A stretch of DNA of 64,000 bases, taken from assembly GCF_009914755.1 (NCBI RefSeq), contig NC_060947.1; one strand, given 5' to 3'. Source of the stretch: the human T2T-CHM13v2.0 reference genome, Homo sapiens. A program made the translations under genes and the position numbers. Positions 4,780 to 15,400 of the stretch are shown here, piece after piece. Within the stretch, counting starts at the first letter, position 1; every line of letters begins with the position of its first letter. The notes under the pieces are model-generated. The model saw only the letters and a program-made list of their open reading frames with translations, was not told the DNA's origin and searched no databases.

Positions 4780-4789
4780 GTAATACACA

Positions 4790-5230
4790 GCACGCTCGAG
4801 GACTCACAAGATGACGGCAACCGGTGGGGAGACGGGCTCGAGAACTCGCGAGATGACGGTGGCCATTGAGGAGCTGGGCTTGAGGACTCGCGAGATGACT
4901 GCGGCCAATGGGGAGCCAGGCTTGAGGACTCGCGAGATGACACCTGCCGGTGGGACGCGGGCTTGAGGACTCACGAGGCGATGGCGGCTGGTGGGGAGCA
5001 TGGCGGCCCTTGCTAGGGGCGTTCTACAGTGCGACTGAGGAGGCCCAGGGTGTCCCGTTTGTTTCATCACCAGCAAGAGGCAGGCAGTGGTGCTGTCCGC
5101 GGTGGCATTCTTGGAGTGACTGGCGACAGAATACGTTCGTGACGGAACCGGGGTCTGAGGAGAGCTCTCCGCCTGCAGAAATGAGTGAACAGACTGCTGC
5201 ATTAGATACCTCGTCGCCACGCAATAAGGC
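4790..5230 (+). promoter_or_regulatory. Small CpG-island-like candidate promoter/5'UTR of the SIAH1 copy
   Basis: Most conspicuous CpG-rich tract outside transposons. Three intact CTCGCGAGA motifs and ATGGCGGC YY1-like cores. Activity is inferred, not shown. Confidence 0.55.
4794..5002 (+). repeat. CpG-rich tandem array of five ~42-bp units
   Basis: Units start at 4794, 4836, 4878, 4920 and 4961 with consensus GCT(C/T)GAGGACTCGCGAGATGAC...GG. Confidence 0.92.
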
Positions 5231-6014
5231 GCCTGCCCGTTCTGACAGGACTGTATCCAACAATGACTTGGCAAGTATCTTCCAGTGTCCGGTCTGCTTA
5301 GACTATGCGTTACCACCAATTCTTCAGTGTGAGAGAGGCCATCTTGTTTGTAGAAGCTGTCACTCAAAGCTCACATCTTGTCCAACTTGCCGCGGCCCCT
5401 TGGGATTGATTCGCAACTTGGCTATGGAGAAAGTGGCTAAGTTTGTACTTTTCCCGTGTAGATATGCCTGTTTGGGATGTGAAATCACTCTGCCACACAC
5501 AGAAAAAGCAGATCACGAAGAAGTCTGTGAGTTTAGGCTTTATTCCTGCCCGTGCCCTGGTACTGTCTGTAAATGGCAAGGCACCATGGATGCTATAATG
5601 CCTCATCTGACTAAAATGCATGAGTACATTACAACAATAGAGGGAGAGGATATAATTTTCCTTGCTACCAGCATTAATCTTGTTGGCGCTTACGATTGGG
5701 TGATGATACAGTCCTGTTTTGGCGTTCGCTTCATGTTAGTCTTGCAGAAACAGGAAGATCACAATGGCGGCCAGCAGTTCTTCGCAGTCGTACAGCTGCT
5801 GGGAGCAAGCAAGGAAGCTGAAAATTTTGCTTACCAACTTGAGCTAAAGGGTAATCGGCGACGACTGACTTGGGAAGCGACTCCTCTACCTATTCATGAG
5901 GACATAGCAAAAGCCATTAAGAATAGAGACTGCTTAATCTTTGACGCCAACACTGCGCTGCTTTTTGCAGAAAATGACGATTTAAGCATCAATGTAGTTA
6001 TTAGTAAGCGTTGA
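5181..6014 (+). CDS. SIAH1P1: SIAH1-like RING E3 ubiquitin ligase, intact 277-aa ORF; retrocopy probably annotated as a pseudogene
   Basis: MSEQTAA...SNNDLASIFQCPVCLDY...CERGHLVCRSC...CPTC (C3HC4 RING), two Sina zinc fingers and a TRAF-like substrate-binding domain (RRRLTWEATP). About 73% identical to my recalled human SIAH1 sequence by hand alignment, with no indels after SNNDLAS. The locus symbol is recalled, not verified. Confidence 0.85.
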   Translation: MSEQTAALDTSSPRNKAPARSDRTVSNNDLASIFQCPVCLDYALPPILQCERGHLVCRSCHSKLTSCPTCRGPLGLIRNLAMEKVAKFVLFPCRYACLGCEITLPHTEKADHEEVCEFRLYSCPCPGTVCKWQGTMDAIMPHLTKMHEYITTIEGEDIIFLATSINLVGAYDWVMIQSCFGVRFMLVLQKQEDHNGGQQFFAVVQLLGASKEAENFAYQLELKGNRRRLTWEATPLPIHEDIAKAIKNRDCLIFDANTALLFAENDDLSINVVISKR

Positions 6015-6276
6015 AATGGCAGTGGAACATTTTCTAGCCAGTGTTTAAAACTGTTTAATTTCACAGAAAATAAGCCACCCATCTGCCTGCCAACCTGAAA
6101 CTCTTCACAAGTATAAGCTCAACAAATAGAGATAAAAAGAAAGACTGTTGAATACAGGAAACAGTTGTGTGTAGTAACATTAGTATATATAAAGATGAGC
6201 ATATTTTGCATTAAGAAAGCATTATAAAATAATTTTGAATTTTGTGTTGTAGATTGATTGTATTGTTGAAAAATAA

Positions 6277-6623
<347 letters not shown>

Positions 6624-6929
6624 GTTTTTTTTTTTTTTTTTTCCTTTAACTGACAAGCCATTTTGAGTGGTCATGGACCACTGCTTTTCCGCTTTGTGAG
6701 TCAATACGTAGTGCTACTATGTGGGGTTTTTTTGTGTGTATTTGCTAGTTTTTTCTTCTAGTTTTTCATTAAATAGATTTGACTTTCTGTTCTGTAATTC
6801 AGGTTGCATCTCACTGTTTTGTACCGTTTTAAAGTTAGTGTCTTTTGATATGCATAATTGTTTATGGTAAAATTTATAACATGTGTTCCATACATGTTCT
6901 CTTTTCCCCCATTAATTGGTTCATTGGAA

Positions 6930-7227
6930 ATTTTTTTTTTTTTTTTGGACAGAGACTCTGTCGCCCAGGCTGGAGTGCAGTGGCGAGATTTTGGCTCACT
7001 GCAACCTCCGCCTCCTGGCTGGGTTCAAGCAATTCTCCTGTCTCAGCATCCCAAGTAGCTGGGACTACAGGCGCCCGCTACCACACCTGGCTAATTTTTG
7101 TATTTTTAGTAAAGACGGGGTTTCACCATATTGGTCAGGCTGGTCTTGAACTCCTGATCTCAGGTGGTCCACCCTCCTCGGCTTCCTAAAGTACTGGGAT
7201 TACAGGTGTGAGCCACCATGCCCGGCC
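6930..7227 (-). mobile_element. AluS inside the SIAH1 copy 3'UTR
   Basis: Full Alu with degenerate TSD gaaattttt/gaaatatttt. Confidence 0.93.
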
Positions 7228-7702
7228 AGAAATATTTTAAAATCAGCTGTTTTGTGAAGATAGGAGTTCCAGAAAGTAAAGGTGACATCGGAAAAATTAC
7301 CAAAAGCTATTTAAAACATCTATAAGATGGTCTTCCCATCTTTCTCTCTTCTACAGATGAGTCATGTCTTTGAGATTAATTTTTGAAAGCTTAGAGAATA
7401 AATAGATGTTTACAAATACTGAAAATCATTCCTTTTACAAGTATCTTGGACAAATTACGTTTAAAATTTGTTCTTGTGTTTATTGATTGTAAAGGCATTG
7501 TCATGCACAGAACTTAATTAAAAGCAAATCATTTGTTTAAAAAGGCACTTTGCAAAAACTGTTTTGGTCTTTCATAATTCTCATTAAAAGAATATATGGC
7601 AAATTAAAAAAGAAAGTAAAGAGAATAAATGTTGTAGCTTGGCTCAGTAAACGGCTCTAGCAGCAATGCTGGACTCGTCTTTAAGAAGTGTATAAAATAC
7701 AC

Positions 7703-8936
7703 ATTTTATTTATCCAGTCTATCATTGATGGGCATTTGAACTCATTCCATGTCTTTGCTATTGTGAATAGTGCTGCAATGAACATATACATACATGTATC
7801 TTTATAATAGAATGATATATATTCCTTTGGGTATATATCCAGTAATAGGATTGCTGGGTCAAATGGTATTTCTGCTTCTAGATCTTTGAGGAATCGCCAC
7901 ACTGTCTTCCACAATGGTTGAACTAATTTGCATTCACACCAACATTGTAAAAGCATTCCTTTTTCTCCACAACCTGGTCAGGATCTGTTTCTTGACTTTT
8001 CAATAATTGCCATTCTGACTGGTGTGAGATGGTATCTCATTGTGGTTTTGATTTGCATTTCTCTAATGATCAGTGATGTTGAGCTTTTTTTTCATATGCT
8101 TGTTGGCTGCATGAATGTCTTTTGAGAAGTGTCTGTTCATGTTGTCCTTTGCCCACTTTTTAATGGGGTTTTTTTTTCTTCTAAATTTGTTTACGTTTCT
8201 TACAGATGCTGGATATTAGACCTCTGTCAGATGGGTAGATTGCAAAAATTTCCTCTCATTCTGTAGGTTGTCTGTTCACGCTGATGATAGTTTCTTTTGC
8301 TGTGCGGAAGCTCTTTAGATTAATTAGATCCCATTTGTCAATTTTGGCTTTTGTTGTTAATTGCTTTTGGTGCTTTTATCATGAAATCTTTGTCCATGCC
8401 TATGTCCTGAATGGTATTGCCTAGATTTTCTTCTAGGGTTTTTATCATTTTGGGTTTTGCAGTTAAGTCTTTAATCCATCTTGAGTTAATTTTTGTATAA
8501 GGTGAAAGGAAGGGGTCCAGTTTCAGTTTTCTGCATATGACTAGCCAGTTCTCCCAGCACCATTTATTGAACAGGGAATATGCAGCCATAAAAAGGAATG
8601 AGATCATATCCATTGCAGGGACAGGGATGGAGCTGGAAGCCATTATCCTCAGCAAACTAATGCAGGAACAGAAAACCAAACACAGCATATTCCATAAGTG
8701 GAAGCTGAACGATGAGAGCACATGGACACCTGGGGGGAACAACACACACTGGGGCCTGTTAGGGAGGTGGGAGAAGGGAGAGCATCAGGAAGAATAGCTA
8801 ATGGATACTGGACTTAATACCCAGGTGGCAGGATGATCTGTGCAGCAAACCACCATGGCACATGTTTACCTATGTAACAAACCTGCACATCCTGCATATG
8901 TGCCCCAGAACTTAAAATAAAAGTTGATGAAAAAAC
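7703..8936 (+). mobile_element. 5'-inverted (twin-primed) truncated L1PA, older L1PA10-13-like
   Basis: Minus-strand ORF2 end at 7703-~8577 fused to plus-strand 3'UTR at ~8578-8936. TSD agtgtataaa(a/g)tacac at 7687 and 8937. Confidence 0.9.
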
Positions 8937-9451
8937 AGTGTATAAAGTACACATTTTAAAAAGAAAAGCACCAATGCAGGGAAAGGCATGAAAAGTGGTA
9001 AATGAGAGGTACAATTTGTAAGTAATGCAGCTCAGGGGAAAAAAACAAAACCCTCATTTGGACAATCCTAACAAAGAAACTGAGACTTGGAGCATTCATC
9101 TTTAGGTGAGAGATTCATAACCAAAGTCTTGTAGCTGGTAAGTTGTATCACAGTATAATTTGTTTTTTTTAAAAATTTCAGTGATACGTGATTATTTACT
9201 TTCATAACTTAAAAAAGTTACAAACCAGTTAGAGAAAAGCAATATTTGGATAAACCTACACATGTCACACAAGATTTGTGGACTTTATAATAAGGAAGCC
9301 TAATCACTAATTCAAATACTATGACATGCTTGCAAGAATTAAAAGTGCATATCTTCCATTCTCTTTTAATTCTAGTCAGTTTTATATCTAGCATATAATT
9401 AGTCATTGGTTCCTTTCTCCAACTCACCTGTTTAATTGGTATTGCATTTTT

Positions 9452-12400
9452 TTTTATTTTATTATACTTTAAGTTCTGGGATACATGTGCAGAATGTGCA
9501 GTTTTGTTACATAGGTATACATGTGCCATGCTGATTTGCTGCACCCATCAACCCATCATCTACATTAGGTATTTTTCCTAATGCTTTCCCTCTCCTAGGC
9601 CCCCACCCCCCGACAGGCCCTGCTGTGTGATGTTCCCTTCCCTGTGTCCATGTTCTCATTGTTCAACTCCCATTTATGAGTGAGAACATGCGGTGTTTGG
9701 TTTTCTGTTCCTGTTATTTTGCTGAGAACAATGGCTTCCAGCTTCATACATGTCCCTGCGAAGGACATGAACTCAACCTTTTTTATGGCTGCACAGTATT
9801 CCATGGTGTATATGTGCCACATTTTCTTTATCCAGTCTGTCATTGATGGGCATTTGGATTGGTTCCAAGTCTTTGTTCTTGTGAATAGGGCTGCAATAAA
9901 CATACGTGTGCATGTGTCTTTATAGTAGAATGATTTATAGTCCTTTGGGTATATACCCAGTAATGGGATTGCTGGGTCAAATGGTATTTCTGGTTCTAGA
10001 TCCTTGAGGAATCACCACACTGTCTTCCACAATGGTTGAACTAATTTACACTCCCACCAACAGTGTAAATGCATTCCTATTTCTCTATATCCTCTCCAGC
10101 ATCTGTTGTTTCCTGACTTTTTAATGATCGCCATTCTAACTGGTGCAAAATGGTATCTTGTTGTGGTTTTGATTTGCATTTCTCTAATGACCAGTGATGA
10201 TGAGCGTTTTCTCATATGCTTATTGGCCACATAAGTATCTTCTTTTGAGAAGTGTCTGTTCTTATCCTTTGCCCACTTTTTGATGAGATTGTTTGTTTTT
10301 TTTTTTCTTGTAAATTTGTTTAAGTTCCTTGTAGATTCTGGATATTAGCCCTTTGTCAGATGGATAGATTGCAAAAATTTTCTCCCATTCTGTAGGTTGC
10401 CTGTTCACTCTGATGATAGTTTCTTTTGCGGAAGCTCTTTAGTTTAATTAGATCCCATTTGTCAATTTTGGCTTTTGTTGCCATTGCTTTTGGTGTTTTA
10501 GTCATGAAGTCTTTGCCCATGCCTGTGTCCTCAATGGTATTGCCTAGGGCTTCTTCTAGGGTTTTTATGGTTTTAAGTCTTACGCTTAAGTCTTTAATGC
10601 ATCTTGAGTTAATTTTTCTATAAGGTGTAAGGAAGGGGTCCAGTTTCAGTTTTCTGCATATGGCTGGCCAGTTTTCCCAACACCGTTTATTAAATAGGGA
10701 ATCCTTTCCCCATTGCTTGTTTTTGTCAGGTTTGTCAAAGATCAGATGGTTGTAGATGTGCGGCATTATTTCTGAGGCATCTGTTCTGTTCCATTGGTCT
10801 ATATATCTGTTTTGGTATCAGTACCATGCTCTTTTGGTTACTGTAGCCTTGTAGTTTAGTTTGAAGTCAGGTAGTGTGATGCCTCCAGCTTTGTTCTTTT
10901 TGCTTAGTATTGTCTTGGCTATACGGGCTCTTTTTTGGTTCCATATGAAATTTAAAGTAGTTTATTCTAATTCTCTGAAGAAAGTCAATGGTAGATTGAT
11001 GGGGATAGCATTGAATCTATAAATTACTTTGGGCAGTATGGCCAGTTCCATGATACTGGTCCTTCCTATCCATAAGCATGGAATATTTTTCCATTTGTTT
11101 GTGTCCTCCCTTATTTCCTTGAGCAGTGGTTTATAATTCTCCTTGAAGAGGTCCTTCACATCCCTTGTAAGTTGTATTCCTAGGTATTTTATTCTGTTTG
11201 TAGCAATTGTGAATGGGAGTTCATTCATGATTTGGCTCTCTGTCTATTATTCGTGTATAGGAATGCTTGTGATTTTTGCACATTGGTTTTTTATCCTGAG
11301 ACTTTGCTGAAGTTGCTTATTAGCTTAAGGATATTTTGGGCTGAGACGATGGGGTTTTCTAAGTATAGAATCATGTCATCTGCAAACAGAGATGATTTGA
11401 CTTCCTCTCTTCCTATTCGAATACCCTTTATTTCTTTCTCTTGCCTGATTGCCCTGGCCAGAACTTCCAATACTGTCTTGAATACGAGTGGTGAGAGAGA
11501 GTATCCTTGTCTTGTGCCAGTTTTCAAAGGGAATGCTTCCAGCTTTTGCCCATTCAGTATGATACTGGCTGTGGGTTTGTCATAAACAGCTCTTATTATT
11601 TTGAGATACGTTCCATCAATACCTAGTTTATTAAGAGTTTATAGCATGAAGTGGTGGGATTTGATAAAATCCAAAGGCCTTTCCTGCATCTATTGAGATA
11701 ATAATATGGTTTTTGTAATTGGTTCTGTTAATGTCATGGATTACATTTATTGATTTGCATATGTTGAACTAGCCTTGCATCCCAGGGATGAAGCTGACTT
11801 GATCGTAGTGGATAAGCTTTTTGCTGTGCTGCTGGATTCGGTTTGCCAGTATTTTATTGAGGATTTTCACATTGATATTCATCAGGGATATTGGCCTGAA
11901 ATTTTCTTTTTTTGTTGTGTCTCTGCCAGGTTTTGGTATCAGGATGATGCTGGCCTCATAAAATGAGTTAGGGAGGAGTCCCTCTTTTTCTATTGTTTGG
12001 AATTGTTTCAGAAGGAATGGTACCAGCTCCTCTTTGTACCTCTGGTAGAATTCAGCTGTGAATTCATCTGATCCTGGGCTTTTTTTGGTTCGCAGGCTAT
12101 GAATTACTGCCTCAATTTCAGAACTTGTTATTGGTCTATTCAGGAATTCGACTTCTTCCGAGTTCAGCCTTGGGAGGGTGTATGTGTCTAGGAATTTGTC
12201 CATTTCTTCTATATTTTCTAGGTTATTTGCATAGAGGTGTTTATAATATTCTCTGATGGTAGTTTGTATTTCTGTGGGATCAGTGGTGATATCCCCTATA
12301 TCATTTTTTATTGTGCCTATTTGATTATTCTCTCTTTACTTCTTTGTTAGTCTGGCTAGCAGTCTATCTATTTTATTAATCTTTTCAAAAAAACAGCTGC

Positions 12401-15400
12401 TGGATTCATTGATTTTTTTGAAATGTTTTTTGTGTCCCTATCTCCTTCAGTTCTGCTCTGATCTTAGTTATTTCTTGTCTTCTGCTAGCTTTTGAATGTG
12501 TTTGCTCTTGCTTCTCTAGTTCTTTTAATTGTGATGTTAGGATGTCGATTTTAGATCTTTCCCGCTTTTTTCTGTGGGCATTTAGTGCTATCAATTTCCC
12601 TCTAAACACTGCTTTAGCTGTGTCCCAGAGATTCTGGTATGTTGTGTCTTTGTTCTCATCGGTTTCAAAGAATTTATTTATTTCTGCCTTAATTTTGTTA
12701 TTTACCCAGTAGTTATTCAGGAGCAGGTTGTTCAGTTTCCAGGTAGTTGTGTGGTTTTTAGTGAGTTTCTTAATCCTGAGTTCTAGTTAGATTGCACTGT
12801 GGTCTGAGAGACTGTTATGATTTCCGTTCTTTTGCATTTGCTGAGTAGTGTTTTACTTCCAATTATGTGTTCAATTTTAGAATAAGTGGGACAGGGTGCT
12901 GAGTAGAATGTATATTCTATTGATTTGGGGTGGAGAGTTCTGTAAATGTCTATTAGGTCCTCTAGGTCCAGAGCTGAGTTCAAGTTCTGAATATACTTGT
13001 TAATTTTCTGTCTCATTGATCTGTTTAATATTGACAGTGGGGTGTTAAAATCTCCCACTGTTATTGTATGGGAGTCTAAGTCTCTTTGTAGGTCTCTAAG
13101 AACTTGCTTTACGAATCTGGGTGCTCCTGTATTGGGTGCATATATATTTAGGATAGTTAGCTCTTCTTGTTGCATTGATCCCTTTATCATTATGTAATGC
13201 CCTTCTTTGTCTTTTTTGATCTTTGTTGGTTTAAAGTCTGCTTTATCAGAGACTAGGATTGCAACCCCTGCTCTTTTTTTGCTCTCCATTTGCTTGGTAA
13301 ATATTTGTCCATCCCTTTATTTTGAGCCTATGTGTGTCTTTGCACGTGAGATGGTTCTCCTGAATATAGCACACTGATGGGTCTTGACTCTATCCAATTT
13401 GCCAGTCTGTGTCTTTTAATTGGGGTAGTTAGCCCACTTACATTTAATATTGTTATGCATAAATTTGATCCTGTCATTATGATGCTAGCCAGTTATTTTG
13501 CCCATTAGTTGATGCAGTTTCTTCATACAATTTGGTATGTTTTTACAGTGGCTTGTACCGGTTTTTCCTTTCCATATTTAGTGCTTCCTTCAGGAGGTCT
13601 TGTAAGGGAGGCCTGGTGGTGGCAAAATCTCTCAACATTTGCTTGTCTGTAAATGATTTTATTTCTCCTTCGCTTATGAAGCTTAGTTTGGCTGGATATG
13701 AAATTCTGGGTTGGAAATTATTTTCTCTAAGAGTGTTGAATATTGGCCCCCACTCTCTTCTGGCTTGTATGGTTTCTGCAGAGATCCGCTGTTAGTCTGA
13801 TGGGCTTCCCTTTGTGGGTAACCCGACCTTTCTTTCTGGCTGCCCTTAACATTTTTCCTTCATTTCAACCTTGGTGAATCTGACGATTATGTGTCTTGGG
13901 GTTGCTCTTCTCGAGGACTATCTTTGTGGTGTTCTCTGGATTTCCTGAATTTGAATGTTGGCCTGTCTTGCTAGGTTGGGAAGTTCTCCTGGATAATATC
14001 CTGCAGAGTGTTTTCCAACTTGGTTCCATTCTCCCCGTCACTTTCAGGTACACCAATCAAACGTAGGTTTGGTCTTTTCTCATAGGTTTGGTCTTTTCTC
14101 ATTGTCCCATATTTCTTGGAGGCTTGTTTGTTCCTTTTCATTCTTTTTTATCTAATCTTGTCTTCACACTTTATTCCATTAAGTTGATCTTCAATCTCTG
14201 ACATCCTTCCGCTTGATTGATTAGGCTATTGATACTTGTGTAAGCTTCACAAAGTTCTTGTGCTGTGTTTTTCAGTTCCATCGGGTCATTTATGTCCTTC
14301 TCTAAACTGGTTATTCTAGTTAGCAATTCCTCTAACCTTTTTTCAAGGTTCTTAGCTTCCTTGTATTGGGTTAGAACATGCTCCTTTAGCTCAGAGGAAT
14401 TTATTATTACCCACCTTCTGAAGCCTACTTCTGTCAATTTATCAAACTCATTCTCTGTCCAGTTTTGTTCCCTTGCTGGCAAGGAGTTGTGATCCTTTGG
14501 AGGAGAAGAGGTATTCTGGTTTTCAGAATTTTCAGCCTTTTTGCTCTGGTTTTTCCTTATCTTTGTGGATTTATCTATCTTTGGTCTTTGATGCTGGTGA
14601 CTTTTGGATGGGGTTTGTATGGACATCCTTTTTGTTGATGTTGCCCCTATTCCTTTGTGTTTGTTAGTTTTCCTTCTAACAGTCAGGCCTCTCTGCTGCA
14701 GGTCTGCTGGAGTTTGCTGGAGGTCCACTCCAAAGCCTGTTTGCCTGGGTATCATCAGTGGAGGCTGCAGAACAGCAAAGACTGCTGCCTATTCCTTCCT
14801 CTGGAAGCTTTATCCCAGAGGGTCGCCTACCAGATGCCAGCCGGAGATTTCCTGTATGAGGTGTCTGTCGACCCCTGCTAGGAGGTGTCTCCCAGTCAGG
14901 AGGCATGAGGGTCAGGGTCCCACTTGAGGAGGCAGTCTGTCCCTTAGCAGAGCTCGAGTGCTGCGCTGGGAGATCCGTTGCTGTCTTCAGAACCAGCAGG
15001 CAGGAACCTTTAAGTCCACTGAAGCTGTGCCCACGGCCGCCCCTTCTCCCGCTTGCTGTGTCCCAGGGAGATGGGAGTTTTATCTATAAGCCCCTGACTT
15101 TCTTTCAGAGATGCCCTGCTCAGAGAGGAGGAATCTAGAGAGGCAGTCTGGCTACACTGGCTTTGCCAAGCTGCGGTGGGCTCCACCCAGTTCGAACTTC
15201 CCGGTGGCTTTGTTCACACTTTGAGGGAAAAACCACCTACTCAAGCCTCAGTAATGGCAGACGCCCCTCCCTGCACCAAGCTTGAGCGTCCCAGGTCGAC
15301 TTCAGACTGCTGTGCTGGCAGCAAGAATTTCAAGCCAGTGGATCTTAACTTGCTGGGCTCTGTGGGGGTGGAATCCACTGAACTAGACCACTTGAGTCCC

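What the first reader, a model, noticed from the sequence alone, without database searches (positions are those of the whole stretch)
5181..6014. Presumed SIAH1 pseudogene looks like a selected, intact retrogene encoding an extra SIAH E3 ligase
Seen: a 277-codon ORF with ATG and stop at the parental positions. Against my recalled SIAH1 sequence it has about 68 substitutions in ~252 core residues but no stop or frameshift, and many changes are conservative (I/V/L, E/Q, K/R). All 8 RING ligands and all 8 zinc-finger ligands are kept. The Cys/His lost within these domains are non-ligands: KLTCC becomes KLTSC and PHLMHQH becomes PHLTKMH. An AluS and an AluY in the 3'UTR show the copy is tens of Myr old, while the neighbouring L1PA7-like ORFs are broken repeatedly. 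Inference: purifying selection on the fold with relaxed or adaptive surface change, as in testis-expressed retrogenes.
Basis: partly seen in the sequence, partly recalled or inferred. Interest (0 to 1): 0.85.

Follow-up and report, generated by a model that had tools for sequence, protein, structure and literature searches.

The report
Conserved intact SIAH1 retrogene on X
A copy of the ubiquitin-ligase gene SIAH1 on the human X chromosome, officially labelled a dead pseudogene, has kept a complete and structurally sound reading frame in humans and several monkeys and apes, so it has very probably been a working, fast-changing gene for tens of millions of years, though whether people still make the protein is untested.

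Summary
Window 5181-6014 (+) is an intact 277-codon ORF, with start and stop at the SIAH1 positions. It differs from SIAH1 at 68 of 252 core residues, keeps all 16 zinc ligands, and passes all three Sina Pfam domains.

It is a full-length processed copy of SIAH1 mRNA: exon 1 is joined to exon 2, it ends at the parental poly(A) site, and two Alus were inserted later.

Neutral decay is rejected:
- The same gene is intact in gibbon, snub-nosed monkey, marmoset and capuchin models. These form one clade that follows the species tree. A titi monkey model lacks zinc finger 1.
- Changes avoid residues that are invariant across animal SIAH proteins (22/136 vs 46/115, p=3e-5). This holds on every branch, including the human one, where it is borderline (4/14, p=0.049).
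- The CDS has 2 in-frame indels where about 19 are expected from the 3'UTR.
- Neutral simulations keep the human ORF in 5 of 800 runs, and all five ORFs in 0 of 600.

The protein nevertheless evolves fast. Pairwise dN/dS is 0.57-0.75, and codon positions 1+2 are more diverged than the 3'UTR. That points to a constrained scaffold with relaxed or adaptive sites elsewhere.

Not shown: transcription, translation, great-ape ORF status, human null alleles. I judge it a new member of a known kind.

The parts
4794..4999 (+). 42-bp tandem array, 4.9 units, built from the first ~45 nt of the retro-copied SIAH1 5'UTR. Units 2-4 each carry a perfect CTCGCGAGA (4845, 4887, 4929).
   Evidence: TRF. Unit alignment (D2, D3). 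Homology of the units to the start of SIAH1 exon 1. Motif found 3 times against 0.01 expected.
4781..5300 (+). CpG-island-like 5' region: 520 bp, GC 59.8%, CpG observed/expected 0.84. The window background is 0.225.
4957..5180 (+). Retro-copied SIAH1 exon-1 5'UTR, joined directly to the exon-2 coding sequence (intron removed).
   Evidence: 160/232 identical to G000:C16:54182482-54182694. That lies about 23 kb upstream of the SIAH1 coding exon found.
5181..6014 (+). Intact 277-codon ORF plus stop (annotated as SIAH1P1).
5286..5390 (+). Sina RING finger (residues 36-70); 8 of 8 ligands kept.
   Evidence: Pfam PF21362, 58.1 bits against cut-off 29.3. Ligand table.
5430..5660 (+). Sina dual zinc finger (residues 84-160); 8 of 8 ligands kept.
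   Evidence: Pfam PF21361, 102.2 bits against cut-off 32. Ligand table.
5709..5996 (+). Sina TRAF-like substrate-binding domain (residues 177-272).
   Evidence: Pfam PF03145, 129.5 bits against cut-off 24.8. PDB SIAH1 chains match at E=1.4e-95 over residues 84-275.
6015..6344 (+). 3'UTR block 1, homologous to SIAH1 3'UTR 1-377.
   Evidence: 45 mismatches, 10 gap openings
6345..6635 (-). Alu insertion 1 (antisense, poly-T first); interrupts the parental 3'UTR.
6636..6936 (+). 3'UTR block 2, homologous to SIAH1 3'UTR 371-660.
   Evidence: 24 mismatches, 8 gap openings
6937..7227 (-). Alu insertion 2 (antisense).
7228..7611 (+). 3'UTR block 3, running to the parental poly(A) site. ATTAAA at 7583-7588 is kept, followed by an A-rich tail remnant.

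Best explanation
SIAH1P1 is a full-length processed retrocopy of SIAH1 mRNA. It landed on the X before the catarrhine/platyrrhine split and was recruited as a protein-coding retrogene.

It encodes a 277-aa SIAH-type E3 ubiquitin ligase with a RING finger, two zinc fingers and a TRAF-like substrate-binding domain. Selection has kept the frame, all 16 zinc ligands and most residues that are invariant across animal SIAH proteins. The remaining residues change at about the neutral rate or faster.

The VxP-degron pocket is largely kept (T156, F165, L166, A175, D177, W178) but its rim is altered (L158I, Q159E, V176Y). The likely activity is RING-dependent ubiquitination of a shifted set of degron-bearing substrates.

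Transcription would start in the CpG-rich 5' region. That region is made of the copied SIAH1 5'UTR, whose first ~42 nt were amplified into five tandem units carrying CGCG promoter-type motifs.

Shown here: retrocopy anatomy, orthology, and sequence signatures of constraint.
Inferred: E3 activity, promoter use, germline expression, and that the human copy is still in use.
For: 1. Anatomy. The 5'UTR matches SIAH1 exon 1, about 23 kb upstream of the coding exon, with no intron. The 3'UTR matches SIAH1 to the parental poly(A) site.

2. Orthologues. Five database clusters score 564-593 bits to the clade profile, against at most 507 bits for any canonical SIAH protein; a chimeric assembly, P0004, sits between at 538 bits. 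They are human, Hylobates 276 aa, Rhinopithecus 277 aa (cluster of 17 members), Callithrix 277 aa and Sapajus 263 aa. None is flagged low quality. They form one clade (SH-aLRT 99) with the species-tree topology. They share the N-terminal 5-codon gap and many derived residues.

3. Ligands. 16 of 16 zinc-ligand columns are intact in all 5 sequences. Neutral tree simulations gave a mean of 6-7 and a maximum of 12 (2 x 300 runs). All five ORFs stayed intact in 0/300 and 0/300 runs.

4. Site pattern. Human versus parent: 22/136 family-invariant core sites changed against 46/115 variable sites (Fisher p=3e-5). Sites never changed in the clade: 99/136 against 33/115 (p=3e-12). On every one of 9 branches, 23-43% of core changes fall on invariant sites against 54% expected; 5 of the 9 are individually below p=0.05. 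The human terminal branch is 4/14, p=0.049. As a negative control, a separate young Aotus copy flagged LOW QUALITY shows no such bias (11/136 vs 9/115, p=1.0).

5. Indels. There are 25 gap openings in 1103 3'UTR alignment columns, but only 2 in the CDS, both in frame (3 and 12 nt). P(<=2) is 4.6e-7 if 20 are expected, and 2.8e-3 if only 10.

6. Human-only simulation. The ORF stayed intact in 3/400 and 2/400 runs.

7. CpG. The 5' region has CpG o/e 0.84 over 520 bp. The CDS has 28 CpGs against 20 in the parent. Simulation with 10x CpG decay gives a mean of 11.4 (maximum 25); without decay it gives 31.9. CTCGCGAGA occurs 3 times against 0.01 expected.

8. Fold and family. Three Sina Pfam domains pass. 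SIAH1 PDB chains match at E=1.4e-95.
Against: - RefSeq curates the locus as a pseudogene (hub annotation), and no transcript is given.
- I found no paper naming SIAH1P1 (0 hits).
- No great-ape protein model appeared in either database search. The human cluster holds only 10 members, all on contigs of at most 1614 nt. ORF status in chimpanzee, gorilla and orangutan is therefore unknown.
- The titi monkey model (P0121, 250 aa) has a 27-residue gap that removes 4 zinc ligands (12/16). The gene is therefore dispensable in at least one lineage, or that model skips a lesion.
- Pairwise dN/dS is 0.57-0.75 and differences are spread almost evenly over codon positions (49/41/53). On their own these look neutral.
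- The human terminal branch has 18 amino-acid changes. Four are at family-invariant sites (K153E, F176Y, R215S, G271D), and the last residue also changes (C282R).
- The constraint signal on the human branch alone is borderline (p=0.049).
- Short upstream ORFs in the leader could dampen translation.
- Species with broken copies produce no protein records, so the orthologue sample is biased towards intact copies.
Confidence: 0.6

Rival explanations
1. The gene was a functional retrogene through most of anthropoid history, but it is now a relic in humans and perhaps in all great apes. Constraint was lost within the last several million years and the ORF simply has not been hit yet.
For: - RefSeq gives it pseudogene status.
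- No great-ape protein models are in the database.
- Loss is possible, as the titi monkey model suggests.
- The human branch carries 18 changes, including 4 at family-invariant sites and C282R.
- My rough estimate from recalled hominoid divergence is that the human terminal branch would carry only about 13-17 neutral substitutions and 2-3 indels in 831 nt. An undamaged ORF after recent relaxation is therefore not improbable.
Against: - Human-branch changes still avoid invariant sites at the same rate as the constrained branches: 4/14 = 29% against 32% clade-wide and 54% neutral (p=0.049).
- All 16 ligands, the start codon, the stop codon and the ATTAAA signal are kept.
- The 5' region and the CDS remain CpG-rich.
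Confidence: 0.3
2. The locus is an ordinary processed pseudogene that has drifted neutrally since insertion. The open frame is chance.
For: Pairwise dN/dS is 0.57-0.75 and differences are nearly even across codon positions (49/41/53). It is annotated as a pseudogene.
Against: - The ORF survives in 5/800 human-only simulations, and all five species' ORFs in 0/600.
- 16/16 ligand columns are intact against a simulated maximum of 12.
- Substitutions avoid family-invariant sites (p=3e-5 and 3e-12), while a truly young neutral copy (Aotus) shows no bias.
- Indels are about ten-fold depleted in the CDS relative to the 3'UTR, and both CDS indels are in frame.
- The neighbouring LINE is shattered.
Confidence: 0.02
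3. The selected function is at the RNA level, for example a decoy for regulators of the SIAH1 3'UTR. The ORF is incidental.
For: 3'UTR blocks 2-3 are less diverged from SIAH1 (59/663 = 8.9%) than codon positions 1+2 (90/554 = 16.2%). This could mean some constraint on the UTR.
Against: An RNA-only function does not explain the absence of frameshifts and stops, the retention of all 16 zinc ligands in five species, or the avoidance of protein-family-invariant residues. The 3'UTR itself carries 25 indels and two Alu insertions.
Confidence: 0.05

Closest known systems
SIAH1 (human chr16; the parent gene)
   Same: Same three-domain architecture, with Sina RING, dual zinc finger and TRAF-like substrate-binding domain all passing Pfam. 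It is 71% identical in protein. All 16 zinc ligands are kept. Six of nine residues named for the VxP pocket or groove are kept.
   Different: - Intronless and X-linked, with a 5-codon shorter N-terminal tail.
- 81/277 residues differ, whereas canonical SIAH1 is identical between human and marmoset.
- The groove rim is changed (L158I, Q159E, V176Y).
- The 149-154 segment and several surface positions change repeatedly among primates.
Mouse Siah1b (X-linked second Siah1 gene)
   Same: An extra SIAH1-type gene on the X chromosome. Its X-linkage next to Car5b is stated in PMC13358730 (passage seen).
   Different: From recall, not tested here: Siah1b is nearly identical in protein to Siah1a, and Car5b/CA5B lies in the Xp22 region, not at this Xp21 position. 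I therefore take it to be an independent event. No mouse sequence grouped with the primate clade in the searches.
SIAH3 (RING-less SIAH paralogue; name recalled)
   Same: A divergent extra SIAH-family member in the human genome. The chr13 match has 42% identity over residues 122-275.
   Different: The chr13 match covers only the C-terminal part. The X-linked ORF keeps the RING and is far closer to SIAH1.
Functional processed retrogenes of mammals (general class; examples recalled, such as PGK2)
   Same: Intronless copy of a multi-exon parent transcript, an ORF kept across species, and X/autosome gene traffic.
   Different: Here the move is autosome to X, the average protein rate is near or above neutral, and expression is undocumented.

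Membership tests
SIAH/Sina E3 ligase family | C3HC4 RING finger with 8 zinc ligands | tested here: met
   Pfam Sina_RING 58.1 bits against cut-off 29.3. Positions 41, 44, 55, 59, 62, 65, 72, 75 are kept in human and 4 orthologues.
SIAH/Sina E3 ligase family | Two zinc fingers (8 Cys/His ligands) preceding the substrate-binding domain | tested here: met
   Pfam Sina_ZnF 102.2 bits against cut-off 32. Positions 98, 105, 117, 121, 128, 135, 147, 152 are kept.
SIAH/Sina E3 ligase family | TRAF-like substrate-binding domain | tested here: met
   Pfam Sina_TRAF 129.5 bits against cut-off 24.8. phmmer to SIAH1 PDB chains gives E=1.4e-95 over residues 84-275. No structure was predicted.
SIAH/Sina E3 ligase family | VxP-degron pocket (F165, L166, A175, W178; T156, L158, Q159; V176/D177/W178 needed for binding, per PMC10135883 passages) | tested here: inconclusive
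   Human copy: T156, F165, L166, A175, D177, W178 are kept; L158I, Q159E, V176Y are changed. The effect on binding is unknown.
SIAH/Sina E3 ligase family | Ubiquitin-ligase activity and dimerisation | not testable with these tools
Processed retrocopy | Parental intron absent; exon 1 and exon 2 sequence contiguous | tested here: met
   Window 4957-5173 matches chr16 sequence about 23 kb upstream of the coding exon, and abuts the CDS.
Processed retrocopy | Ends at the parental poly(A) site with an A-rich tail | tested here: met
   The alignment ends at window 7611 in an A-run, with ATTAAA kept at 7583-7588.
Processed retrocopy | Target-site duplication | tested here: inconclusive
   No convincing flanking direct repeat was found. 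The 5' boundary is obscured by the 42-bp array.
Functional (selected) retrogene | ORF intact in orthologues across species | tested here: met
   5 of 6 anthropoid protein models are intact: human, gibbon, snub-nosed monkey, marmoset and capuchin. The titi monkey model lacks 27 residues. The sample is biased because broken copies give no protein record.
Functional (selected) retrogene | Non-neutral substitution pattern | tested here: met
   Substitutions avoid family-invariant sites (p=3e-5 and 3e-12). The share at invariant sites is below expectation on all 9 branches, 5 individually significant. The Aotus control is neutral. Classical pairwise dN/dS of 0.57-0.75 is not decisive by itself.
Functional (selected) retrogene | Transcribed and translated | not testable with these tools
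   No expression data are available here. SIAH1P1 gave 0 papers.
Non-functional processed pseudogene (current annotation) | Disabling mutation (frameshift, premature stop, lost start) or neutral substitution pattern | tested here: not met
   No disabling change in the human copy. The substitution pattern is non-neutral.

The most novel reading that the evidence does not exclude
SIAH1P1 may be a live, primate-specific, X-linked E3 ubiquitin ligase under recurrent adaptive change, with a shifted degron specificity.

It may also be one instance of a wider rule: SIAH1, whose own protein is frozen, repeatedly spawns long-lived, fast-evolving intronless paralogues in mammals. Independent clades appear in anthropoids, lorisiforms, caniform carnivores, talpid moles and cervids, and mouse has Siah1b. 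The same canonical-invariant positions (for example A133, R215, R241, and also C71) are replaced again and again.

This would point to a recurring selective demand. The male germline is plausible, because Siah1a is needed for meiosis I in mice.
Probability: 0.3. Interest if true: 0.8.

Novelty: new member of a known kind. Interest (0 to 1): 0.62.

Why it matters
If the human copy is expressed, the human genome holds a third RING-bearing SIAH ligase that is missing from protein catalogues, from substrate and inhibitor studies of SIAH1/2, and from proteomics search databases. Its high similarity to SIAH1 could also confound antibodies, siRNAs and read mapping.

In evolutionary terms it is a clear case where a plain dN/dS test looks neutral, yet frame, ligand and site-pattern tests show selection. 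It is therefore a useful warning for pseudogene curation.

The repeated retention of SIAH1-derived paralogues across mammals suggests a recurring and possibly germline-related selective pressure on this ligase family.

Tried and rejected
- The supplementary tables of Li et al. 2008 (PMC2198940) were closed. They might say which locus its 'SIAH1L' is. I therefore cannot confirm that the 'SIAH1L' listed among SIAH RING E3s in the main text is this X-linked locus. Another paper uses Siah1L for a SIAH1 splice variant (abstract seen).
- Literature searches found nothing describing this locus: 'SIAH1P1' 0 papers; 'SIAH1'+'pseudogene'+'X chromosome' 18 papers, none relevant by title or abstract; 'SIAH1'+'retrogene' 12 papers; 'SIAH1'+'retrocopy' 2 papers.
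- Rfam found no RNA family anywhere in the window at gathering thresholds.
- No convincing target-site duplication was found.
- CpG-island retention is not proof of germline hypomethylation. The homologous part of parental exon 1 has 40 CpGs in 218 nt, and the copy has 16 in 224 nt. Substantial decay has therefore occurred, and I use the CpG data only as supporting evidence.
- Codon-based dN/dS across primates could not be done, because no primate DNA other than the human assembly is reachable with these tools. Only protein models were available.
- I did not run structure prediction, fold search, complex prediction or the search of protein representatives.
- P0004 (354 aa, 80% identity) was rejected as an orthologue. 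Its N-terminal half is identical to the human X copy and its C-terminal half to canonical SIAH1, so it is a chimeric assembly.
- The lorisiform SIAH1-like proteins were considered as deeper orthologues, but they do not group with the anthropoid clade.
Full report
**What is there.**
Window 5181-6014 (+) is a 277-codon ORF with an ATG start and a stop. It passes all three Sina Pfam domains above their curated cut-offs: RING 58.1 bits, zinc finger 102.2 bits, TRAF-like domain 129.5 bits. It matches solved SIAH1 chains at E=1.4e-95 over residues 84-275.

A six-frame search of the window's own assembly found five matches: this locus, SIAH1 on contig 16 (71% identity), two pieces on contig 3 (SIAH2 by protein similarity), and a 42%-identical C-terminal match on contig 13 (14 candidates scored).

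Aligned to the 282-aa SIAH1 read from L002, start and stop are at the parental positions. The only length differences are two in-frame gaps (1 + 4 codons) in the N-terminal tail. 81/277 residues differ, and 68/252 in the core.

**It is a full-length processed retrocopy.**
- Window 4957-5173 aligns (160/232) to sequence about 23 kb upstream of the SIAH1 coding exon, which is SIAH1 exon 1. In the window it abuts the coding sequence with no intron.
- Downstream, three blocks (6015-6344, 6636-6936, 7228-7611) align to the SIAH1 3'UTR up to its poly(A) site. ATTAAA is kept at 7583-7588.
- Two antisense Alu elements fill the gaps between the blocks. I did not determine their subfamilies.
- At the 5' end, the first ~45 nt of the copied 5'UTR have been amplified into a 42-bp tandem array of 4.9 units (4794-4999).

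**Pairwise codon statistics alone look neutral.**
Against SIAH1, dN=0.174 and dS=0.275 by NG86 (omega 0.63). The core gives 0.57, and other estimators give up to 0.77 (LWL85; ML 0.75). Differences are spread 49/41/53 over codon positions.

The SIAH1 protein is frozen: it is identical in human and marmoset. All of dN therefore belongs to the copy, while dS is shared between the two lineages. A neutral copy would give about 0.5, so this test does not show purifying selection.

Codon positions 1+2 are also more diverged (90/554 = 16.2%) than the 3'UTR (104/978 = 10.6%, p=0.0018; blocks 2-3 59/663 = 8.9%, p=1e-4). On average the protein has changed at least as fast as the flanking non-coding sequence.

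**Every test that looks at where changes fall rejects neutrality.**

(a) Orthologues. The protein database holds intact models from four other species:
- Hylobates moloch: 276 aa, 85% identical.
- Rhinopithecus roxellana: 277 aa, 82% identical, in a cluster of 17 members.
- Callithrix jacchus: 277 aa.
- Sapajus apella: 263 aa.

None is flagged low quality. A profile of the five sequences separates them cleanly: 564-593 bits against at most 507 bits for any canonical SIAH protein, with only the chimeric P0004 (538 bits) in between. They share the N-terminal gap and dozens of derived residues. In a 23-row tree they form one clade (SH-aLRT 99) with the species topology ((marmoset, capuchin),(colobine,(human, gibbon))). 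P0004 was left out of the tree as a chimera, and P0121-P0135 were found later and not included. By species distribution the gene predates the catarrhine/platyrrhine split, which I recall as about 40+ million years ago.

(b) Ligands. All 16 zinc-ligand columns are intact in all five sequences. The Cys/His that did change are at positions that also vary in canonical SIAH proteins. The assignment of these 16 as ligands is recalled, not tested here.

(c) Site pattern. I picked 43 canonical SIAH1/SIAH2/Sina sequences by hand from the 120 listed (fetched). I dropped P0005 and P0067 for internal duplications, leaving 41. In these, 136 of 251 core positions are invariant.
- The human copy differs from SIAH1 at 22/136 invariant sites against 46/115 variable sites (p=3e-5).
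- Sites never changed in the clade: 99/136 against 33/115 (p=3e-12).
- On all nine branches the share of core changes at invariant sites is 23-43% against 54% expected; five of the nine are individually below p=0.05. The human terminal branch is 4/14 (p=0.049).
- As a control, a separate young Aotus copy flagged LOW QUALITY shows no bias (11/136 vs 9/115, p=1.0).

(d) Indels. The 3'UTR blocks contain 25 gap openings in 1103 columns. By my reading, about 6 of these are multiples of three. The 846-column CDS alignment has 2, both in frame. P(<=2) is 4.6e-7 for an expectation of 20, and 2.8e-3 if half the UTR indels are charged to the parent lineage.

(e) Simulation. Neutral mutation of the SIAH1 CDS was conditioned on the observed amino-acid divergence.
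- The human ORF was kept in 3/400 runs (10x CpG rate) and 2/400 runs (no CpG effect).
- All 16 ligands were kept in 2/400 and 1/400 runs.
- Along the five-species tree, all ORFs were kept in 0/300 and 0/300 runs. On average 6-7 ligand columns stayed intact, with a maximum of 12.
- The tree simulation slightly overshoots the human path (108 parsimony steps against 81 net differences), so I rely for the human-only figures.

(f) Local contrast. The neighbouring LINE on the minus strand is broken into frames of at most 205 aa.

**Rate heterogeneity.**
Parsimony puts 237 amino-acid changes on the tree: 59 on the stem, 18 on the human branch and 23 on the gibbon branch. Per-site counts in the core are over-dispersed: 132 sites with none, and 19 sites with three or more.

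Repeatedly hit positions include 149-154, next to the first strand of the substrate groove, and also 199, 208, 212, 222, 272, 276 and 280.

Human and gibbon differ at about 41 of 276 positions (85% identity; 18+23 parsimony changes). From recalled hominoid divergence this is more than neutral drift should give. I could not test it with codon models, because only protein models were available for other primates.

A constrained scaffold combined with sites that evolve at or above the neutral rate is what the data show. Whether the fast class is adaptive remains an inference.

**Likely mechanism.**
According to passages of PMC10135883:
- The SIAH1 VxP pocket is formed by F165, L166, A175 and W178.
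- T156, L158 and Q159 lie on strand beta-1.
- A V176A/D177A/W178A triple mutant abolishes binding.

The human copy keeps T156, F165, L166, A175, D177 and W178, but has L158I, Q159E and V176Y. Position 176 is F in the other four primates, and position 159 is K in platyrrhines. I therefore infer a RING-dependent E3 that still reads VxP-like degrons with altered flank preference. This is not shown.

**Possible promoter.**
- Region 4781-5300 meets CpG-island criteria: 520 bp, GC 59.8%, o/e 0.84, against a window background of 0.225.
- Three of the five tandem units carry a perfect CTCGCGAGA, found 3 times against 0.01 expected. The units are otherwise only 74-83% alike.
- The related TCTCGCGAGA element is described as a CGCG promoter motif bound by BANP or Kaiso (search listing and abstracts only).
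- The CDS holds 28 CpGs against 20 in the parent. This fits simulation without methylation-driven decay (mean 31.9) and not with it (mean 11.4, maximum 25).
- Against over-reading this: the copied exon-1 segment has fallen from 40 to 16 CpGs.
- Short upstream ORFs exist in the leader, including a 51-aa frame at 4811-4966.
- Germline expression is inferred only by analogy. Mouse Siah1a is needed for meiosis I (passages of PMC8947704).

**What argues for caution.**
- RefSeq curates the locus as a pseudogene.
- No paper names it.
- No great-ape protein model was found.
- The titi monkey model P0121 lacks 27 residues, including four ligands.
- The human branch carries changes at four family-invariant sites plus C282R.
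- The human-branch constraint signal is borderline.
- The orthologue sample is biased, because broken copies yield no protein records. Even so, five intact lineages are far beyond what the simulations allow.

**Known or new.**
The locus is annotated as SIAH1P1. A 2008 catalogue of human E3 ligases lists 'SIAH1L' beside SIAH1 and SIAH2 (PMC2198940, passage seen). NCBI names the monkey and gibbon orthologues 'SIAH1-like' or 'SIAH1B-like' proteins.

My searches found no description of its conservation or selection. I class it as a new member of a known kind: a retrogene-derived SIAH-family ligase.

**Verdict.**
- About 0.9 that selection kept the gene protein-coding through anthropoid history.
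- About 0.6 for the full claim, including that the human copy is still in use.
- About 0.3 that it is a recently relaxed relic in humans.

Noticed in passing
proteins P0032, P0035, P0054 (caniform carnivores); P0039, P0091 (talpid moles); P0040, P0041, P0047, P0061, P0122, P0132 (lorisiforms); P0123, P0128 (cervids); P0034, P0048 (bats); P0036 (shrew); P0037 (pocket mouse); P0043 (anteater): Many mammals carry divergent 'SIAH1-like' protein models of about 276-289 aa, while canonical SIAH1 is frozen. Talpids (SH-aLRT 100), caniforms (95) and lorisiforms (99, with at least two paralogues predating the loris/galago split) form their own clades. All keep 16/16 zinc ligands, and most avoid family-invariant sites. 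This suggests repeated long-term retention of SIAH1-derived paralogues. The cervid pair was not placed on a tree.
   Followed up: partly
SIAH1 positions 71, 133, 215, 241 (window codons for 71 and 241: TCT, CTA): Some positions that are invariant or nearly so in canonical SIAH proteins are replaced in many of the 13 mammalian copy lineages counted: A133 in 8, R215 in 7, R241 in 7 (L in anthropoids, lorisiform-a and cervids). C71, which is variable in the canonical set (identity 0.78), is replaced in 9. R215 (CGC) and R241 (CGA) are CpG codons, so mutational hot spots explain part of this. The lorisiform lineages may not be independent.
   Followed up: partly
protein P0121 (Plecturocebus cupreus, 250 aa): This model belongs to the anthropoid retrogene clade by its signature residues, but it has a 27-residue gap that removes zinc finger 1 (12/16 ligands). 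It also has several radical changes in the substrate-binding domain. It may be a lineage-specific loss, or a gene model that skips a lesion.
   Followed up: partly
protein P0056 (Aotus nancymaae, LOW QUALITY PROTEIN, 333 aa): This is a separate, much younger SIAH1 copy. Its few changes fall equally on invariant and variable sites (11/136 vs 9/115). It served as a neutral control.
   Followed up: yes
protein P0004 (354 aa; 6 contigs of at most 2160 nt, source 'lgn'): Public assembled contigs encode a chimera. The N-terminal half is identical to the X-linked copy, including 77 upstream in-frame codons, and the C-terminal half is identical to canonical SIAH1. This is most likely an assembly artefact where the two loci share sequence. 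It shows that the two genes can be confused in short-read data.
   Followed up: partly
window 4811-4966 (+), 4981-5016 (+), 5000-5038 (+): Upstream ATGs lie in the putative leader. One is a 51-aa frame running through the tandem array, and two are short frames of about 11-12 codons. All end before the main ATG at 5181. The main frame itself is open for 77 codons upstream without an in-frame ATG.
   Followed up: partly
window 4804-5202 (-): A 132-aa antisense ORF lies across the GC-rich tandem array and 5'UTR. No evidence for it was sought, and it is probably a by-product of GC-rich repeats.
   Followed up: no
window 7681-14788 (-): A decayed LINE lies on the minus strand. A reverse-transcriptase fragment (11769-12335) and an endonuclease fragment (12783-13316, below the Pfam cut-off) sit in separate short frames. 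The longest stop-to-stop frame is 205 aa.
   Followed up: partly
window 1-64000: No Rfam family reaches its gathering score anywhere in the window.
   Followed up: yes
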